This document shows positions 8,540-60,476 of a stretch of 64,000 nt of DNA, piece by piece (the stretch's first letter is position 1; each line of letters starts with the position of its first letter). The stretch spans positions 224,001 through 288,000 of the forward strand of contig OY761556.1 of NCBI GenBank assembly GCA_963664705.1, written 5' to 3'. This DNA comes from Acidobacteriota bacterium (GTDB lineage: Bacteria > Acidobacteriota > UBA6911). The notes beneath the pieces are model-generated. The model was not told the DNA's origin, searched no databases, and worked only from the letters and a program-made list of their open reading frames with translations. The translations under genes were made by a program, and so were the position numbers.

Positions 8540-8788
8540 ATGACTAGACTCACCGCATCTCAACTTCGCGAAGATATGGCGACCGCAATAAATAAAGTAG
8601 CTTTTGGAGGAGAACGAATTGTCCTCCAGAGGAACAACAAAGATGTGGCTGCTCTCGTCCCGATGGAGGATTTGACCTTGCTCAAAGAATTAGAGGACAG
8701 GGTGGATTTGGAGGAGATAAAGAAAGCGCTCGCCGAACCAGGTTCGAATATCCCTTGGGAAGATATCAAGAAGGAATTGGGAATTTAG
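8540..8788 (+). CDS. Type II antitoxin, Phd/YefM family
   Basis: LTASQLRE...INKVAFGGERIVLQRNNKDVAALVP; acidic C-terminus IPWEDIKKELGI. Confidence 0.88.
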   Translation: MTRLTASQLREDMATAINKVAFGGERIVLQRNNKDVAALVPMEDLTLLKELEDRVDLEEIKKALAEPGSNIPWEDIKKELGI

Positions 8789-9052
8789 GTGACATACAGG
8801 ATCGAGTTTCGGCCTGCGGCCCTCCGCGATTTGAAAAGCCTGCCCAAAGATATACTGGATAGGGTCAGCAGAAGGATATCAGCCCTGGCAGAAGATCCAC
8901 GTCCATTGGGGGTGGAGAAGCTGTCAGGAAGCGAAGAGGACTTCTATCGAGTTCGAGTGGGTGATTACCGAATTCTTTATTCCATCCAAGACAAGATCTT
9001 ACTAGTCATCATTGTTAAGATGAGACACCGCCGGGAAGTGTATCGCGGATAA
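8789..9052 (+). CDS. Type II toxin, RelE/ParE family
   Basis: YRIEF...ALRDLKSL...PRPLGVEKL...YRVRVGDYRILY...HRREVYR; abuts the antitoxin. Confidence 0.92.
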   Translation: MTYRIEFRPAALRDLKSLPKDILDRVSRRISALAEDPRPLGVEKLSGSEEDFYRVRVGDYRILYSIQDKILLVIIVKMRHRREVYRG

Positions 9053-9160: not shown

Positions 9161-9237
9161 TGGTCGGGGCACGCAGATTTGAACTGCGGACCTCCTGCGC
9201 CCAAGGCAGGCGCGCTACCAGGCTGCGCTATGCCCCG
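9161..9237 (-). tRNA. tRNA-Pro(TGG)
   Basis: Reverse complement CGGGGCATAGCGCAGCCTGGTAGCGCGCCTGCCTTGGGCGCAGGAGGTCCGCAGTTCAAATCTGCGTGCCCCGACCA: cloverleaf, TGG anticodon, GTTCAAATC T-loop, encoded CCA. Confidence 0.97.
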
Positions 9238-9281
9238 ACTTAATAGGGTCGTCATTGTAACCTAATTCACAACGGGTGACA

Positions 9282-9312
9282 ATTGACGATTTACGATTTG
9301 CGATTGACGATT
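9282..9312. repeat. Heptamer tandem array overlapping the rdgB 3' end
   Basis: ATTGACG ATTTACG ATTTGCG ATTGACG ATT. Confidence 0.8.
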
Positions 9313-9884
9313 CTGCTGATAAAAGCCGCAACGGCACGGGCGCGATGGCTGTGCGCATTCTTTTCTACCTGTGATAATTCCGCGTAGGTTTTCCCGAGCT
9401 CCGGAAAGAAAAATACCGGATCATAGCCGAATCCATTATTGCCGCGCGGTTCCTTCGCTATGATCCCGCAGCATTCACCTTCTGCCTCCAGAACCAGCTG
9501 GCCTTCCTTTGCGCACGCAAGCGCACAGACGAACCTGGCATTCCGGAGTCCGCTCAGCTGCTCGAGTTCGTCCAGGAGCTTGCGGATTCGATCTGCATCG
9601 GATGCGCCCGTGCCCGCGTAGCGCGCCGAGTAGATGCCAGGCCTGCCCCCAAGCGCTTCCACTTCAAGACCGGAGTCATCCGCAAGAACCGGAAATGGAG
9701 TCAATTGGGAATAGGCCAGGGCTTTGATTCGGGCATTTTCAGCGAAGGTACTGCCTGTTTCCTCGCATTCCGCATCGATGGAGAGATCGGCCAGACTCAA
9801 TATACTGCAGGGCAGGGGAATCAGAAGCTCCCTGAATTCCCGCAATTTCCCCTTGTTTTTTGTAGCAATAACAAGCGTGTCCAT
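9291..9884 (-). CDS. rdgB: Non-canonical purine NTP pyrophosphatase
   Basis: ATKNKGKLRE, EETGSTFAENA, ADDSGL, GFGYDPVF, SHRARA. Confidence 0.95.
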   Translation of the reverse strand: MDTLVIATKNKGKLREFRELLIPLPCSILSLADLSIDAECEETGSTFAENARIKALAYSQLTPFPVLADDSGLEVEALGGRPGIYSARYAGTGASDADRIRKLLDELEQLSGLRNARFVCALACAKEGQLVLEAEGECCGIIAKEPRGNNGFGYDPVFFFPELGKTYAELSQVEKNAHSHRARAVAAFISRIVNRKS

Positions 9885-10711: not shown

Positions 10712-10845
10712 AGAAATCTCCTTACCTCCGGCAAAAAAAAAGAACGCACATTCTATCAGTGGCGATAAGAGAAATGAAAGGATGTAAACCAGAAGAATGC
10801 AGGTCACAGGCATTGCTTTTGCAATCCGATTCTCCTAGCATACAA

Positions 10846-11571
10846 ATGATGAATACTTATTTTTTCGGCGGTCCGAGCACAAAGACTGTTAAGGCTCTAA
10901 TTATTGTAAATATTGGTGTTTTCGTTCTCCAGACGCTATTTCACCTTCTGGGGAGCAACGTCATTGATCTCTATTTCGGACTGGTTCCCATCCGCGTCAC
11001 CGAAGGGTACATGTTATGGCAATTGGTGACGTACATGTTCCTCCACGGCGGTGTCTTCCATATCTTCTTTAACATGTTGACCCTTTTCATGTTCGGGAAT
11101 GAGTTGGAACGATACTGGGGAACCTACCGATTCCTGAACTACTATTTTATTACCGGAATCGGTGCGGGAATCTGCTCCTGGGCTGTTGCCCCGCACAGTT
11201 TCGCCGTCGTGATCGGCGCTTCCGGTGCTATTTACGGACTTCTCCTTGCCTATGGCCTGACCTATCCTAATCGCATTGTCTATGTGAACTTCCTGCTTCC
11301 TCTGAAAGTCAAATGGCTGGTCATCATCATGGGCGCGATGGCCTTTTTCTCCTCGATTGGCGGGACGGAACCCGGCATCGCCAGTATTGCCCACCTCGGC
11401 GGCATGGTTGTGGGTTACCTCGTTCTGAAGGGAAAAGACTGGTATGACAAATACCGGTATTTCGATGAACAGAGGCACCGTGAGCAGCTCAAACGCCAGT
11501 TTGAGGTTTATTACGGCGACGTCCGACGCAAGGTCGAGGACGATAAGAAAAAAGGCCCAACAATCCATTAA
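10846..11571 (+). CDS. Rhomboid family intramembrane serine protease
   Basis: WQLVTYMFLHG, HIFFNM, GASG catalytic Ser, AHLGG catalytic His. Confidence 0.93.
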   Translation: MMNTYFFGGPSTKTVKALIIVNIGVFVLQTLFHLLGSNVIDLYFGLVPIRVTEGYMLWQLVTYMFLHGGVFHIFFNMLTLFMFGNELERYWGTYRFLNYYFITGIGAGICSWAVAPHSFAVVIGASGAIYGLLLAYGLTYPNRIVYVNFLLPLKVKWLVIIMGAMAFFSSIGGTEPGIASIAHLGGMVVGYLVLKGKDWYDKYRYFDEQRHREQLKRQFEVYYGDVRRKVEDDKKKGPTIH

Positions 11572-11610
11572 ATGACGAATTACGAATGACGAATGACGAA
11601 TTACGAATGC
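11571..11610 (+). repeat. Left heptamer array of the four-helix-bundle cassette
   Basis: AATGACG AATTACG AATGACG AATGACG AATTACG AATGC, starting in the rhomboid stop codon. Confidence 0.92.
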
Positions 11611-11698
11611 AAAGCACTGCTAATATTTTTGTCCTTCCCGCCTGAAAATTCCCATGAAAAAAAATGGCTCAAAAAGAGGCCATACCAATTAGATCAGC

Positions 11699-12052
11699 AT
11701 GGGAGCAGAACCGCTTAGGAAAAGGACGCAGGCATTCGCCTTTGCGATAATTCAGTTTGTTCAGACAATTCCGGACCGGGGCCCCGCACGTGTCATCGGC
11801 CAGCAACTTGTGCGTTGTGGTACATCGGTGGGTGCCAATTTCCGGGCGGCTTGTCGCGCGCGATCGCATCCTGATTTTATTGCCAAGCTTAAGATTGTTG
11901 AAGAGGAGTGTGATGAGTCCATCTATTGGCTGGAATTATTGGCAGACTTGAACCTGAGCAATGGAGGCATGCTTCAGAAGCTAACTTTGGAAGCCAACGA
12001 AATTTTGGCCATAATCGTAGCATCCATCAAGACCGCCCGCAAAAACTCCTGA
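11699..12052 (+). CDS. Four helix bundle protein (23S rRNA IVS protein / Avd-like fold)
   Basis: LRKRTQAFA...QLVRCGTSVGANFRAACRARS..DFIAKLKIVEEECDESIYWLELL...EANEILAI. Confidence 0.92.
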   Translation: MGAEPLRKRTQAFAFAIIQFVQTIPDRGPARVIGQQLVRCGTSVGANFRAACRARSHPDFIAKLKIVEEECDESIYWLELLADLNLSNGGMLQKLTLEANEILAIIVASIKTARKNS

Positions 12053-12104
12053 TTCGTCACTCTTCATTCCCAATTCCCAATTCGTAATTCGTAATTCGTA
12101 ATTC
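12052..12104 (-). repeat. Right heptamer array, inverted relative to 11571-11610
   Basis: ATTCGTC ACTCTTC ATTCCCA ATTCCCA ATTCGTA ATTCGTA ATTCGTA ATTC; ATTCGTA/ATTCGTC are reverse complements of the left units. Confidence 0.92.
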
Positions 12105-14280
12105 AGAACGATGGTCCGACGGAAATGTAGAAGCTGAAGCGTCCACCTTCGGCCCAGCCTCCGGTTGCCCGGACCGGGCCAAGAATCGTGTCCACGGCAA
12201 GCCCAAGTCCTGCGCCGCTTATATAACCGAAATTGTATGGATGCCGCGGTTCAATGCTGGAGTCCATTCCGTTATAGGTTCCGACAACATAGCCTCGGCG
12301 GACGAGGCTGAATGGCCTCGAAAAGATCAGCCTGCGGTAACTGGCGGATACGATAGCCATTTGCCGAACCGGGAACTCGTCCCGACGCAGCCCCAGGAAT
12401 GGAATCGATGCTGCTTGCGAAGCCGAAGATCCTCCTACGAAGAAAAGGTCGTAAAACGGGACTGTGCCGTGGGAATACCCCAGGTTGGCGTTGATCTGAA
12501 TTGTCGACTGAGGCGAAAAGGAAATGGAGCGCTGATAATCCATAGTCCACTTGGAATAGTCCAGGTCGCTGCCCAGCGATGGGCTCCGTTTATCAATTTG
12601 AAGACGCAGTGCCATGCCGCGGCGGGGGAAATCGCGGGAATCGAGTGTGTCGCGGTTCAACCTGAATGTAAGTCCTGCGAGCCTCTGCGAGCCGGCCAGC
12701 CGGTTCGGGTCCTGGCCCCCATCGATTCTCACGCGCTCATATCGGAATCCTCCGGCAATTTCCATCTGCTTGAAAAAGGATCCGCCGATCATCAGGCGTC
12801 CGGCTTCACGCTTTTCCGTGAATCGGTCGACGATCTGCCGATCGCGCATGTCCAGACGTTCAAGGCGAAGTACTTCGATTCTGGGTTCCAGAAACAGGAA
12901 AGGGGCTTTGGCGGGGATGAGTCGCAGGGAGGCTACGTGATTTTCCAGGCCGCCGAATTGAGTCGAGAGAGTTGCGGTGGAAGGGGAGTGGAATAATTGC
13001 CGGGCGGTGAATTCGGCAAGGGCTACGAAGGTATAGTCGTTGTCGTAGCGCAGGCCCGCGCCCAGCGCCTTCAAAGGCGTTTCCTTCACGACATAAATGA
13101 GTTCGTATCGATTGCCGGGCAGCGGTTCCAGCGAATAGGCAACACTCTCAAACAGCCGCGTGGCGTACAACCGCCCGACATCCTTGCCGATTGCAGCCGA
13201 ATCCACGGTATCCCCCGGGTGTACATGGATGCTTGGCATGAGTTGTGACGCCGGAATGTGTGCGAGTCCCCGGAAGGATACGGATGAGATAGCGGGCTGT
13301 ACTACCATTGGGGATGGTGGCGGAGAAGGCGGCGCCGCCACATTGGCAGTCAAGGCCCGGATTTCCTCCAAATGCTTTTTTACTTCTTCTTCGCCGCGTG
13401 AAATGATGGTCGAGATTTTGTCATAGTCCGCATAGGTCAGATTCTGAAGCTTCGGTTGCAGTACGATGGTTGCCAGTTTCCGGTTTTCGCGAACGTTCCT
13501 TTCCATCTGCAGACTGATCGATTGATCGACGACATCCAGAAAATTGCGAATCATGTCCTTCTGCTGCAACGGGGTCGTCGTATCGACGGCGATGATGATG
13601 TCAGCGCCAAGATCGCGCGCAATGTCGGTGGGAAGATTATCGACCAGTCCGCCATCCGCGAGGAGCATGTCATCCTTTTCAAGCGGCGTGAAAAGAAGTG
13701 GAATGGCCATGGAGGCTCGGAGTGCTTCCGTCAGTGATCCTTTTTGGAATACATAGGCATTTCCATTCACAAGGTTCGTGGCAACTGCGCGGAATTGGAT
13801 TGGAAGGCGGTCGAAGTCATAGCCGGCCCGGAGCATCCGGCTGTTGGTTAGGATATCCAATTCCTCCGTCAGCCGTTGACCTCCTCGAAATCCGGTAGGC
13901 AACTCAGGGTTCCAGCCTCGGAAATATACCTGGGCCTGGTAGCGGGAGTTCCTTCGTTCAAGAAGGGGGGTGAGCCGTCGCTCCGGGGCATCGCTGAAAA
14001 TGGTTGTCCAATCCTGACCGGACAATACACGTTCAATCTCATCGGTCGAATAGCCGATGGCATACAGACCGCCGGCCAGGGCGCCAAAGCTGGTGCCCGT
14101 GATGCAGTGGATGGGGATATGCTCCCGCTCCAATGCCCGCAGTACTCCAATATGCGCGGCGCCACGCGCACCTCCGCCGCTCAGGACCAGGGCAACTTTG
14201 TGTTTCTGTTGCGCGATTCCGGAAACGGGAGGGAAGAGGCTGATAACTGCAATAGAAAAAATAAGATAGAGGTGCTTCAT
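12103..14280 (-). CDS. Patatin-like phospholipase with POTRA and Omp85 barrel (PlpD / type Vd-like)
   Basis: Signal peptide; GGGARG, GTSFG nucleophile, DGGL; POTRA-like segment; barrel ending ...FYISVGPSF. Confidence 0.88.
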   Translation of the reverse strand: MKHLYLIFSIAVISLFPPVSGIAQQKHKVALVLSGGGARGAAHIGVLRALEREHIPIHCITGTSFGALAGGLYAIGYSTDEIERVLSGQDWTTIFSDAPERRLTPLLERRNSRYQAQVYFRGWNPELPTGFRGGQRLTEELDILTNSRMLRAGYDFDRLPIQFRAVATNLVNGNAYVFQKGSLTEALRASMAIPLLFTPLEKDDMLLADGGLVDNLPTDIARDLGADIIIAVDTTTPLQQKDMIRNFLDVVDQSISLQMERNVRENRKLATIVLQPKLQNLTYADYDKISTIISRGEEEVKKHLEEIRALTANVAAPPSPPPSPMVVQPAISSVSFRGLAHIPASQLMPSIHVHPGDTVDSAAIGKDVGRLYATRLFESVAYSLEPLPGNRYELIYVVKETPLKALGAGLRYDNDYTFVALAEFTARQLFHSPSTATLSTQFGGLENHVASLRLIPAKAPFLFLEPRIEVLRLERLDMRDRQIVDRFTEKREAGRLMIGGSFFKQMEIAGGFRYERVRIDGGQDPNRLAGSQRLAGLTFRLNRDTLDSRDFPRRGMALRLQIDKRSPSLGSDLDYSKWTMDYQRSISFSPQSTIQINANLGYSHGTVPFYDLFFVGGSSASQAASIPFLGLRRDEFPVRQMAIVSASYRRLIFSRPFSLVRRGYVVGTYNGMDSSIEPRHPYNFGYISGAGLGLAVDTILGPVRATGGWAEGGRFSFYISVGPSF

Positions 14281-26029: not shown

Positions 26030-28123
26030 CTATCTCATGGCCGGGATGGCAGCCGGCTGACTGGTTGCGTGCTCCGCCGCATACCGGGCTTCGGCTGCAG
26101 CCAATTGCTCTTTCAGGTTTCCCTTCGAGAAGATAACATCGCACGCGGTCCCCGCGGATACTTTAGTTCCTGGCGAAGGTGACTGGAAGACCGCAAGGCC
26201 TGCGCCTTTGGCCTGTAGTCGAATACCGAGTTCCATGCAGCGTGCCAGTACGGTTCTTTTGCCCAATCCTCTGAAATTTGGAATGATGATATCGGGTCCG
26301 CTCTTGACCTGTACGGTAATCGATTCCTGCGCTTCTTCCTTGAGCCCATTCTTTGGCGATTGCAAAGGCTGCACCGCATCGGGGATGTAATCCTCGGAGC
26401 CGACATCGGCAATGAGAGGCTTGAATTGTGGTAGAGGAATTGCCGGGTCCGGCTGTACGTGAAGCTGCAGCAATGTTTCCTGGGCGATCTTCTGAAAGAA
26501 CGGTGCACTCACGTCGCCGCCGTAATGCGCTCCCTTCGGTTCATCAATCTGCACAAGAATGGTGATGCGAGGGTGGGGAAGAGGTGCAAACCCGATGAAA
26601 GAAGAAACGTATTTGTTGGGTGAATATCGTCCATCGACGATTTTTTGCGCTGTCCCGGTTTTGCCGGCTGCGCGGTATCCTTCGAGAGCTGCGCGTTTTC
26701 CGGTGCCGCGGAGGACCACTCCCTCAAAAGCATCGGAAACCGCTTTTGCCGTCTCCGGGCTCATTAGCCGCACGCGCTCCGGAGTCGTTACTTTAGCCAG
26801 ATCCCCATTTGCATCGATAATCCGGTCTACAAGTGTGGGTCGGACCCTATATCCACCGTTGGCGATCGAGTTGATCGCCGTCAGTATCTGCATGGATGTG
26901 ACGCCCACTTCCTGACCGAATGAAATAGCACCGATCGAAAGACCGGACCACTCATGCCAATCGCGTACCAGTCCCACAATTTCGCCCGGTAGATCGATCC
27001 CGGTTCGTGAGCCAAATCCGAAATTTCTCAACGATTCATACAGGCGCTGTTCGCCCAGGCGCAAGCCGAGTTTAGCCGCGCCCACATTGGATGAATACTC
27101 GAGGATTTGGCCGAAGCTGAGCAAGCCATAGCCTTTGTGGTCATGGAAGACATGTTTGCTGATCGTGATGGTTCCCATCTGGCAATCGATCATCTCAGTC
27201 GGTCGGGTCAACCCGGCTTCCAGAGCGGAGGCCGCTACCACAACCTTAAAGGTAGATCCCGGTTCAAAGGCATCGGAGATAGCGCGATTACGCCAGACAT
27301 CGGACTGATATTTGTTGTAGGCGGTACAGTTGAATTGAGGGTAATTAGACAATGCGAGTATTCTGCCCGTGTCGGATTCCATGACAATTGCAGTACCCGC
27401 TTTTGCCTGAGCCTTTTCCACGGCGGCCGTAATCTCTCGGTCCGTGATGTACTGGATGGACTTGTCGATGCTCAACACCAGGGAATGGCCCTGCACCGGC
27501 GCTACCTCAACGTTGGCTTTGTAGGAGCGCCTCAGAGCATCCACATCCAGGGAGAACAAACCTTCCTTTCCCTTCAGCTCCTTGTCGTACTGCTGTTCAA
27601 GCCCGTAGGTTCCATCTTCGTTCATGTTTACGAATCCCAAAGCATGGCATGCCAATTCGCGATTGGGGTACACGCGCATGCTTTCCTCGACGAAATAGAC
27701 CCCCTCGATTCCGAGCGCCGCAATTTGCTTTTCCGCATTGGGATCAATTTTGCGCTGGAGGATGACATCTTTGCGCTTCGGGTCCGTCAATTTGTTGAGG
27801 ACTTCCTGTGGATTCATTTTAAGAATCTCCGCGAGTTTCCTGGCTGTCGCGGGGATGTTTTTTATGTTCTTGGGTTCGGCATGCGCCGTGCTGACGGGTA
27901 CACTTGTAGCCAGTTCCTCCATATGGCTGTCGTAGATAATTCCGCGGGGAGGCAGAATGGAACGCGTTACCTGCTGGTTTTCTGAGGCGATTTCAACGAA
28001 GGTCTGGTGCTCGAATACCTGTAATTGAACCAGGCGAACGAGTATCAGGAAGCTCCAGAGCGTGATTCCCAGGATTACAATGGCGATGCGTGTGGTTTTG
28101 AAGCCCTTTCCACCGTCGGACAT
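26030..28123 (-). CDS. ftsI: Division transpeptidase PBP3/FtsI with PASTA-like C-terminus
   Basis: RGIIYD, EPGSTFK (SxxK), SSN, GKTGT; start at ATG 28123 because the upstream extension is repeat-derived. Confidence 0.93.
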   Translation of the reverse strand: MSDGGKGFKTTRIAIVILGITLWSFLILVRLVQLQVFEHQTFVEIASENQQVTRSILPPRGIIYDSHMEELATSVPVSTAHAEPKNIKNIPATARKLAEILKMNPQEVLNKLTDPKRKDVILQRKIDPNAEKQIAALGIEGVYFVEESMRVYPNRELACHALGFVNMNEDGTYGLEQQYDKELKGKEGLFSLDVDALRRSYKANVEVAPVQGHSLVLSIDKSIQYITDREITAAVEKAQAKAGTAIVMESDTGRILALSNYPQFNCTAYNKYQSDVWRNRAISDAFEPGSTFKVVVAASALEAGLTRPTEMIDCQMGTITISKHVFHDHKGYGLLSFGQILEYSSNVGAAKLGLRLGEQRLYESLRNFGFGSRTGIDLPGEIVGLVRDWHEWSGLSIGAISFGQEVGVTSMQILTAINSIANGGYRVRPTLVDRIIDANGDLAKVTTPERVRLMSPETAKAVSDAFEGVVLRGTGKRAALEGYRAAGKTGTAQKIVDGRYSPNKYVSSFIGFAPLPHPRITILVQIDEPKGAHYGGDVSAPFFQKIAQETLLQLHVQPDPAIPLPQFKPLIADVGSEDYIPDAVQPLQSPKNGLKEEAQESITVQVKSGPDIIIPNFRGLGKRTVLARCMELGIRLQAKGAGLAVFQSPSPGTKVSAGTACDVIFSKGNLKEQLAAAEARYAAEHATSQPAAIPAMR

Positions 28124-28126
28124 ATA

Positions 28127-28193
28127 ATTGACGATTGACGATTTACGATTGACGAGTTCTTGGGGCGTCAACCGTCAATCGTGAATCGTCAAT
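28127..28193. repeat. Inverted heptamer hairpin (4+4 units) between ftsL and ftsI
   Basis: ATTGACG ATTGACG ATTTACG ATTGACG - 11 nt loop - CGTCAAC CGTCAAT CGTGAAT CGTCAAT. Confidence 0.92.
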
Positions 28194-28215
28194 TTATTCT
28201 CCTATTCCTGAGATG

Positions 28216-60392: not shown

Positions 60393-60471
60393 AGAATCCC
60401 GGATTTCAGATTTTGAGCTATTTTGAGTCAGTCCTCTGAAATCCGGAATCTTTAATCTGGAATCTGGAATC
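60393..60471. repeat. Inverted heptamer hairpin between atpD and atpC
   Basis: Perfect 12-bp stem CCGGATTTCAGA (60399-60410) / TCTGAAATCCGG (60435-60446), then AATC units every 7 nt up to 5 nt before the atpC ATG. Confidence 0.75.
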
Positions 60472-60476
60472 TTCCT

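What the first reader, a model, noticed from the sequence alone, without database searches (positions are those of the whole stretch)
11571..12104. Four-helix-bundle (IVS protein-like) gene enclosed by complementary heptamer arrays: candidate mini mobile cassette or mRNA intervening sequence
Seen: five (T/G)ACGAAT-type units start at the rhomboid stop, and seven in-phase units including ATTCGTC and three ATTCGTA run from the four-helix gene's stop to the convergent patatin stop. The ~530-nt unit therefore fills the whole gap and can fold into a long stem with the ORF in the loop. Established: this protein family occurs within 23S rRNA intervening sequences, which are bounded by an RNase III-cleaved stem, and shares a fold with the DGR accessory protein Avd. 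Inference: the same stem-enclosed architecture in an mRNA context, with no transposase or integrase, suggests a poorly described element that spreads or is excised via its repeat arms. I cannot confirm from here that it is unreported.
Basis: partly seen in the sequence, partly recalled or inferred. Interest (0 to 1): 0.78.

Follow-up and report, generated by a model that had tools for sequence, protein, structure and literature searches.

The report
Swappable gene tied to heptamer repeats
A small gene of unknown function sits between mirror-image runs of a 7-base repeat, is swapped or flipped at this same spot in related bacteria, and its version matches the 7-base repeat that predominates across each genome, so its protein likely recognises and maintains these long-unexplained repeats.

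Summary
A 117-aa TIGR02436/PF05635 gene (11699-12052) fills the rhomboid-patatin gap between complementary period-7 arrays.

It is not a lone hopping element. All 5 family genes in this genome have such arms, each with its own heptamer, and the genome holds 267 period-7 arrays, enriched just behind stop codons.

At this junction relatives carry two old alleles, one with GAAT(G/T)AC arms and one with GATT(G/T)AC arms, each in both orientations. Two contigs with 99% identical flanks differ in the gene and both arms. All 9 genomes with the cassette have 47-254 repeat matches; the 8 with the junction but no gene have 0-13. The commoner repeat type follows the resident allele.

Best reading: a resident gene for an Avd-like pentamer that likely binds and maintains its own repeat family, organised like RAYT/REPIN but without a transposase, and exchanged or inverted by host recombination. 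Binding, excision and expression are untested, and a residue-level code could not be shown.

This scan has seen the architecture many times on other DNA (883 notes). I found no paper linking these genes to heptamer repeats.

The parts
10846..11571 (+). Rhomboid protease gene (left neighbour); the left arm begins at its stop codon
   Evidence: PF01694; ATG at 10846 chosen, the ORF list starts it at 10759
11574..11608 (+). Left arm: five (G/T)ACGAAT units, GAAT(G/T)AC class
11609..11655 (.). About 45-nt spacer; no second match in this genome, and longer than the arm-to-leader gap in the other genus junction alleles
11656..11698 (+). Promoter-like leader that travels with the gene: A-tract 11657-11664, -35-like ATGGCT 11664-11669, -10-like AATTAG 11687-11692, 6 nt to the ATG, no evident Shine-Dalgarno site (leaderless transcript inferred)
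   Evidence: 18 alleles, fixed spacing; not picked up by the sigma-70 consensus scan
11699..12052 (+). Four-helix-bundle gene, 117 aa, TIGR02436/PF05635, 'F-type' allele (Phe48)
12052..12102 (-). Right arm: seven in-phase units complementary to the left arm; on the minus strand it begins at the patatin stop
12103..14280 (-). Patatin-POTRA-Omp85 gene (right neighbour, convergent)
9276..9313 (.). Gene-less GATT(G/T)AC array elsewhere in the window; an array at the orthologous site in G014
28123..28194 (.). Gene-less GATT(G/T)AC hairpin (array, short loop, complementary array); a hairpin at the orthologous site in G014
60445..60474 (.). Gene-less GATT(C/T)CA array, the class found around another paralog; G014 has a different heptamer at this site

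Best explanation
This is a single-copy resident gene whose Avd-like, predicted five-subunit protein likely binds runs of its own 7-base repeat and so likely seeds or maintains that repeat family across the genome, while the gene and its two repeat arms are swapped and flipped at this one site, likely by ordinary host recombination.

Shown: the arms; the fold; one heptamer class per paralog; site residence; two alleles in two orientations; exchange of gene plus both arms; genome-wide repeat content tracking the presence and allele of the gene; arrays placed behind stop codons; purifying selection.

Inferred: a ring of five; binding of roughly one heptamer per subunit on the single strand that follows a stop codon (RNA, or unpaired DNA); the gene's own promoter making it indifferent to orientation; inversion by recombination between the arms; new arrays arising with host enzymes, since the protein has no known catalytic site.
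For: 1. All 5 TIGR02436 genes in G000 have complementary arms, each a different heptamer. These match five of the ~7 array classes among 267 period-7 arrays; other periods give 1-47.
2. Across 130 distinct family loci, 66 pass a strict inverted-heptamer score, against 8 in direct orientation, 4.7% of mismatched pairs, and 9 of 771 similar-sized G000 ORFs (3 of those 9 are family genes).
3. Presence tracks the gene. All 9 genus genomes with the junction cassette (intact or relic) have 47-254 GAAT+GATT pattern matches; the 8 with the junction but no gene have 0-13.
4. Type tracks the allele. The GAAT share is 0.68-0.90 in 4 F-resident genomes and 0.29-0.55 in 5 Y-resident genomes. It goes the same way in the related host pairs G000/G014, G017/G005 and G043/G006.
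5. A second paralog repeats this. The four genomes rich in GATT(C/T)CA (60-167 matches) carry the matching gene with those arms; G024's orthologue has GATTCGA arms and 0 matches.
6. L211 and L216 have 99% identical flanks but differ in gene and both arms, starting at the rhomboid stop. The host tree needs at least 7 allele and 4 orientation changes. The window's closest host, L221 (100/99), has the other allele in the other orientation. L272 and L277 cross over inside the gene.
7. 56 of 257 arrays start within -14..+10 nt of a same-strand stop, against 7 in the opposite orientation and 2.1% expected.
8. Array length peaks at 4(-5) whole units in 4 of 5 classes.
9. The fold matches 2RLD and 2GSC (five chains each) and Avd, TM 0.76. 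All five Avd protomers contact one RNA stem-loop (10.1101/2023.10.23.563531, passages).
10. pN/pS is about 0.1-0.35 in 9 pairs.
11. Outside support: the supplement of PMC4692102 lists a GGGAATC array directly before XCC0516, the 2GSC protein.
Against: No binding was measured, and gene-arm matching also follows from co-inheritance.

The residue-to-base test fails for lack of power. Phe48 goes with GAAT in 9 of 9 loci, but these are about 2 origins. Independent pairs number 1-3 in the tests whose output I saw, and several GAAT loci have Tyr48.

Every cassette-bearing genome holds both repeat types, and three Y-resident genomes still have slightly more GAAT than GATT.

G002, G007 and G018 have 102-241 matches but no gene of this clade was found. 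Their junction is unassembled or at a contig end, so they are undecided. G014 has GATTCGA arrays with no matching gene found.

About half of family loci fail the strict score, and some show no arrays at all, for example L177, L183, L185, L190. The supplement lists no inverted partner for the XCC0516 array.

The GGACGTT class shows no length peak. Kin are not independent, so the p-values overstate. The gene-versus-host conflict among genomes alone is modest: AU p = 0.04 and 0.07 on the gene tree.
Confidence: 0.55

Rival explanations
1. The arrays are independent hairpin or 3'-end elements that spread by slippage and gene conversion. The gene is a passenger that is merely inherited together with whichever arrays surround it.
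For: Arrays also enclose or flank unrelated genes such as FHA, ORF6N and adenylate-kinase-like ORFs. Gene-less heptamer arrays near stop codons are published without any protein partner (PMC4692102, passages). No residue code survived correction for kinship.
Against: Arrays of this class are nearly absent (0-13 matches) from all 8 genomes whose junction lacks the gene, and the majority type follows the allele at one single-copy locus. A second paralog shows the same pattern. Protein clades keep related heptamers across phyla.
Confidence: 0.18
2. It is an autonomous mini mobile element: the protein recognises the arms and moves gene plus arms to new sites, with gene-less hairpins as non-autonomous copies.
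For: Empty and filled junctions both exist. The left border sits at the stop codon in L211/L216. A related clade has second copies at other sites in G017, G042 and G005. The family is spread patchily across phyla.
Against: Junction genes form one clade (99/92), and within each allele they roughly follow the host tree. There is one copy per clade in G000. Synonymous sites are near saturation between genomes. A crossover lies inside the gene, and the right border of the L211/L216 exchange runs beyond the arm. No target duplication is visible in the junction sequences, and the protein has no known catalytic motif.
Confidence: 0.13
3. It is an mRNA intervening sequence: read-through transcripts fold the arms into a stem that RNase III cuts, releasing the gene as in 23S rRNA and trimming the neighbours' 3' ends.
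For: The arms pair (duplex -32.2 kcal/mol). The same protein family sits in RNase III-excised rRNA IVSs (PMC4990558, abstract and Introduction). Neighbouring opposite arrays are ordered to allow a stem in 26 of 30 cases.
Against: The site lies between two convergent stop codons, so nothing needs rejoining. The inferred own promoter would start the gene's transcript downstream of the left arm. Many arrays have no complementary partner nearby. This reading does not explain why genome-wide repeat content follows the gene. It could still be a side effect.
Confidence: 0.1

Closest known systems
ORF-bearing intervening sequences of 23S rRNA (S23p; Coxiella, Leptospira; PMC4990558)
   Same: Same protein family (PF05635). 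The ORF is enclosed by complementary ends, with a poor or absent Shine-Dalgarno site.
   Different: Not in an rRNA gene. The ends are tandem heptamer arrays shared with many gene-less sites. The gene flips and swaps, and is under purifying selection. Excision is not shown.
REPIN-RAYT systems (PMC3337134; 10.1101/2021.07.10.451892)
   Same: A short, single-copy, site-resident gene flanked by its own inverted repeats. One repeat group per paralog. Many dispersed extragenic singlets and hairpin doublets with fast turnover (23 of 36 sites not shared).
   Different: The protein is a four-helix bundle, not an HUH tyrosine transposase. The repeats are tandem non-palindromic heptamers. Alleles are exchanged between lineages at the locus.
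Heptamer tandem repeats of Xanthomonas and Nostoc (PMC4692102); cyanobacterial STRR (name recalled)
   Same: Period 7, about 4 units, strand-biased position just behind stop codons, frequent inverted pairs.
   Different: No protein partner was proposed in the passages I saw (G-quadruplex formation was), and the repeats here are not G-quadruplex type. The paper's own supplement places one array at XCC0516.
Avd, accessory protein of diversity-generating retroelements
   Same: Same fold (TM 0.76). A pentameric barrel that binds RNA with all five protomers.
   Different: No reverse transcriptase gene among the neighbours in the region listed; the genome's only RVT_1 hit is over 1 Mb away in either direction. 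Only 15-17% sequence identity.
TRAP and Hfq rings that read tandem RNA repeats (recalled, no call)
   Same: Proposed logic of one repeat unit per subunit.
   Different: Different folds. Here each paralog would have its own repeat, and the repeats turn over like mobile DNA.

Membership tests
TIGR02436 / PF05635 four-helix-bundle protein family | Score above the curated cut-off | tested here: met
   85.2 bits against 24; 59.5 against 33.8
TIGR02436 / PF05635 four-helix-bundle protein family | Four-helix fold like 2RLD and 2GSC | tested here: met
   pLDDT 94, four helices; TM 0.80-0.85
TIGR02436 / PF05635 four-helix-bundle protein family | Homopentamer | not tested
23S rRNA intervening sequence | Located inside a 16S or 23S rRNA gene | tested here: not met
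   Only a tRNA in the window; neighbours are protein genes
23S rRNA intervening sequence | Bounded by complementary ends forming a stem | tested here: met
23S rRNA intervening sequence | Excised from the RNA by RNase III | not testable with these tools
   Needs RNA end mapping or an in vitro assay
REPIN-RAYT | HUH/Y1 transposase encoded between the repeats | tested here: not met
   Gene is PF05635 only; the one Y1_Tnp gene in G000 is 1.2 Mb away with its own palindromes
REPIN-RAYT | Single-copy, site-resident gene with its own repeat group per paralog | tested here: met
REPIN-RAYT | Dispersed extragenic singlets and inverted doublets whose presence depends on the gene | tested here: met
   (correlation only; three genomes undecided)
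REPIN-RAYT | Repeat unit is a short palindrome | tested here: not met
   Tandem heptamers
Insertion sequence / MITE | Transposase, or multiple near-identical copies with fixed termini and target duplication | tested here: not met
   One copy per clade; arm length varies and no duplication is visible; crossover inside the gene
Diversity-generating retroelement | Adjacent reverse transcriptase with template and variable repeats | tested here: not met
   Only RVT_1 hit in G000 is at 5.76 Mb; template/variable repeats were not searched for separately

The most novel reading that the evidence does not exclude
Four-helix-bundle proteins are sequence-specific writers or keepers of bacterial heptamer repeats. 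Each paralog or allele is a pentameric ring that recognises its own 7-mer and drives new arrays to appear at stop codons using host enzymes. This would be a transposase-free counterpart of RAYT/REPIN, in which competing specificity alleles replace one another at a fixed locus and leave a layered record in the genome. A parallel system may pair PD-(D/E)XK (PF13366) genes with 9-mer arrays.
Probability: 0.35. Interest if true: 0.9.

Novelty: new variant of a known kind. Interest (0 to 1): 0.72.

Why it matters
Heptamer repeats are known to be over-represented in many bacterial genomes without an explanation (stated in PMC4692102). This large protein family has solved structures but no function (PMC4990558). 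This locus ties the two together with a natural experiment: two alleles of one 117-aa protein, about 60-65% identical, at one site, each matched to a heptamer that differs by one base. A four-way binding test (two proteins by two repeats) can decide the question directly. If true, it gives a family of small ring proteins with natural, switchable nucleic-acid specificity and a route to repeat spread without a transposase.

Tried and rejected
Excision or circle evidence from sequencing runs. The two 'skip' joints carry a 15-nt linker that maps to another hairpin of this genome at 4,373,757, so they are cross-mapping. The 'goes back 533' joint is at about genome depth and probably comes from another locus, but I did not trace it. 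No inversion joint was listed; the near-full holders (X1-X4) are one sample, possibly the source, and contigs drop rare variants. The raw-read run laid only 3 reads. No RNA holder listed.

Residue-to-base code. Raw associations are strong (positions 48, 62, 65, 71, 113), but the independent-pair tests I could see had 1-3 pairs. Not claimed.

Sigma-70 and terminator scan: at chance level. A sigma-54 reading of the leader was dropped by eye, because the -12 GC (consensus recalled) is not conserved.

Partner enzymes: neither the RT nor the Y1 transposase is linked, and G010 has 167 GATT(C/T)CA matches with no Y1_Tnp hit.

A motif scan for RT missed the RT found, so it was discarded. The G012 rhomboid identities are misaligned and were not used. 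No complex prediction was run.

Literature searches found no paper linking these genes to heptamer arrays. PMC8700078 and PMC5524665 (passages) only list the gene. The library lacks most subscription journals, and bioRxiv supplements were not consulted.

Full report
OBSERVATION. The described features are all present. Five heptamer units at 11574-11608 follow the rhomboid stop. Seven in-phase complementary units, three of them degenerate, run from the gene's stop to the patatin stop. The stop-to-stop spacer is 531 nt. Periodicity far exceeds shuffles, and the arms pair in the predicted fold. The ORF is TIGR02436/PF05635. Its model (pLDDT 94) matches 2RLD, 2GSC and Avd. No rRNA lies in the window. 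The named records that hold this junction are mostly titled Acidobacteriota.

THE GENOME. G000 has five family genes. All five sit between complementary arrays, each of a different heptamer: GAAT(G/T)AC here, then GTAG(T/C)CA, GGAG(T/A/G)CA, GGACGTT and GATT(C/T)CA. The genome holds 267 period-7 arrays, against 1-47 for periods 5, 6 and 8-11, and 259 fall into seven classes. With crude ORF calls, 56 of 257 arrays of three or more units start within -14..+10 nt of a same-strand stop codon; 7 do so in the opposite orientation, and 2.1% is expected. Neighbouring opposite arrays are ordered to form a stem in 26 of 30 cases. Array length peaks at four (to five) whole units in four of five classes. 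Some unrelated genes are also enclosed by arrays.

THE FAMILY. Of 133 loci with full flanks, from genus and class relatives and from many phyla, 85 had arrays on both sides and 69 had complementary ones. A stricter score passed 66 of 130 distinct loci, against 8 in direct orientation, 4.7% of mismatched pairs and 9 of 771 control ORFs. Some loci have no arrays. On a tree of the 57 of 142 loci with clean arms, protein clades keep related heptamers. In 99 of 153 distinct close relatives with scorable arms, the two arms vary together (rho 0.76 and 0.63).

THIS JUNCTION IN RELATIVES. Of 30 genus genomes, 25 gave the rhomboid gene. Nine have the cassette. It is sense in G000 and G014 and antisense in G024, G017 and G005. 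It is antisense and damaged in G012 (internal stop), G043 (frameshifts), G006 (split by ~7 kb) and G042 (remnant). Eight have the junction without the gene: seven spacers of 12-66 nt and one unrelated 312-nt insert. Seven have other neighbours, and one contig ends there. Metagenome contigs added 17 junction loci; 14 went into the host tree, and two duplicates and one with almost no rhomboid sequence were dropped.

TWO ALLELES. The F-type has Phe48 and GAAT arms (one damaged copy has mixed arms); the Y-type has Tyr48 and GATT arms. Each occurs in both orientations. The 22 junction genes form one clade (99/92), the F-type a subclade (97/93), and within each allele the tree roughly follows the hosts. 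On the host tree at least 7 allele changes and 4 orientation changes are needed, and the window's closest host, L221, has the other allele the other way round. L211 and L216 are 99.1% identical over 1383 nt downstream and differ once in about 130 nt upstream. Yet they differ in gene, leader and both arms from the rhomboid stop onward, with the right border some tens of bases past the arm. L272 and L277 are nearly identical to about codon 78 and divergent afterwards. These are metagenome assemblies, but genome pairs show the same swap: the host tree rejects G000+G017 (AU p = 7e-5), while the gene tree groups them with G043 and rejects G017+G005 at p = 0.04; G000+G014 is not rejected (p = 0.07). 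Three other paralogs also sit at shared sites in the genus, although a few second copies occur elsewhere. I infer a resident gene exchanged by homologous recombination and inverted between its arms. A leader with promoter geometry and no evident Shine-Dalgarno site travels with the gene in 18 alleles, which would make orientation harmless. pN/pS of about 0.1-0.35 indicates a working protein.

GENE AND GENOME-WIDE REPEATS. Counting overlapping pattern matches, the nine cassette genomes have 47-254 and the eight gene-less junction genomes 0-13. Ten other genus genomes have 0-2. Three (G002, G007, G018) have 102-241 with no gene found, but their junction is missing or at a contig end. The GAAT share is 0.78, 0.82, 0.90 and 0.68 with an F allele, and 0.32, 0.29, 0.55, 0.54 and 0.55 with a Y allele (kin are not independent). 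In G000 exact GAAT runs reach eight units and GATT runs only three, as expected if the latter are relics. The GATT(C/T)CA paralog behaves alike, with G024 as a control. In 800 kb of G014, 36 of 59 array sites had a syntenic interval in G000: 10 held the same class, 3 another class and 23 none. Arrays therefore come and go much faster than the gene.

MECHANISM. The simplest account is that each protein recognises its heptamer and that arrays are born or kept only while it is present. The strand bias at stop codons, the 4-5-unit length and Avd's use of all five protomers on one RNA element (10.1101/2023.10.23.563531, passages) point to a ring binding the single strand. That step is inference. 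A residue-level code could not be separated from kinship, no partner enzyme is linked, and sequencing data gave no excision product. I put this reading at 0.55, passenger gene at 0.18, autonomous element at 0.13 and mRNA intervening sequence at 0.10.

KNOWN SYSTEMS. The protein is a member of the IVS-protein family. The element fails IVS membership (not in rRNA), RAYT membership (no HUH transposase), and IS/MITE and DGR membership. It is organised like REPIN-RAYT (PMC3337134 and 10.1101/2021.07.10.451892, passages) and built like an ORF-bearing IVS (PMC4990558, abstract and Introduction). Gene-less heptamer arrays with the same positional habits are published (PMC4692102, passages). That paper's supplement lists one directly before XCC0516, with no inverted partner given, and its main text does not mention the gene. 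Searches found no paper making the link; subscription journals are largely outside the library. TRAP, Hfq and the STRR name are recalled. Earlier notes of this scan report the same architecture on other DNA, some with swaps, flips, a promoter or self-recognition. My counts here were made independently.

VERDICT. Real, widespread and, as far as I could search, undescribed outside rRNA. A new variant of a known kind, interest 0.72. This locus adds a ready two-allele test of whether these proteins read heptamer repeats.

Noticed in passing
G000:C1:2163559-2164024, 4472297-4472660, 6229795-6230400 and tandem relics at 1489240-1489760 and 5193547-5195100 (L343, L345): PD-(D/E)XK genes (PF13366; GxxExxY name recalled) sit beside or between period-9 arrays of two types. 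One has a leader much like the four-helix-bundle leader. This may be a parallel gene-plus-repeat system with a nuclease fold.
   Followed up: partly
G000:C1:1313000-1480000: 32 of the 38 GGACGTT-class arrays fall in the 250-kb bin that holds their matching gene (1375899), with mixed 7- and 8-nt units. This suggests local spread or arrival as a block.
   Followed up: partly
window 9276-9313: The ORF at 9291-9884 (minus strand; looks like RdgB/HAM1, label recalled) ends inside a heptamer array, which encodes its last residues.
   Followed up: no
L011 (G017), L071 (G042), L212, L213, L219, L223: In one host clade a second, gene-less hairpin with a related ~100-nt loop is nested between the rhomboid stop and the inverted gene.
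   Followed up: partly
L018 (G003) junction: The 66-nt gene-less spacer is a hairpin with heptamer-like ends, and this genome keeps 13 GATT matches. It is probably a relic after gene loss.
   Followed up: partly
G000:C1:3262340-3263230: Four tandem ~260-nt units, each containing a GAAT hairpin.
   Followed up: no
L065 (G006:C35:19600-27400): A ~7-kb block of several ORFs is inserted in the middle of the four-helix-bundle gene.
   Followed up: no
window 8540-9052: A small gene pair resembling a Phd/YefM antitoxin and a RelE toxin lies just before the tRNA at 9164-9237 (labels recalled, not scanned).
   Followed up: no
L045, L051, L091, L115-L117: Some family branches have arms with period 8-9 or 6, or less regular units, rather than 7.
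   Followed up: no
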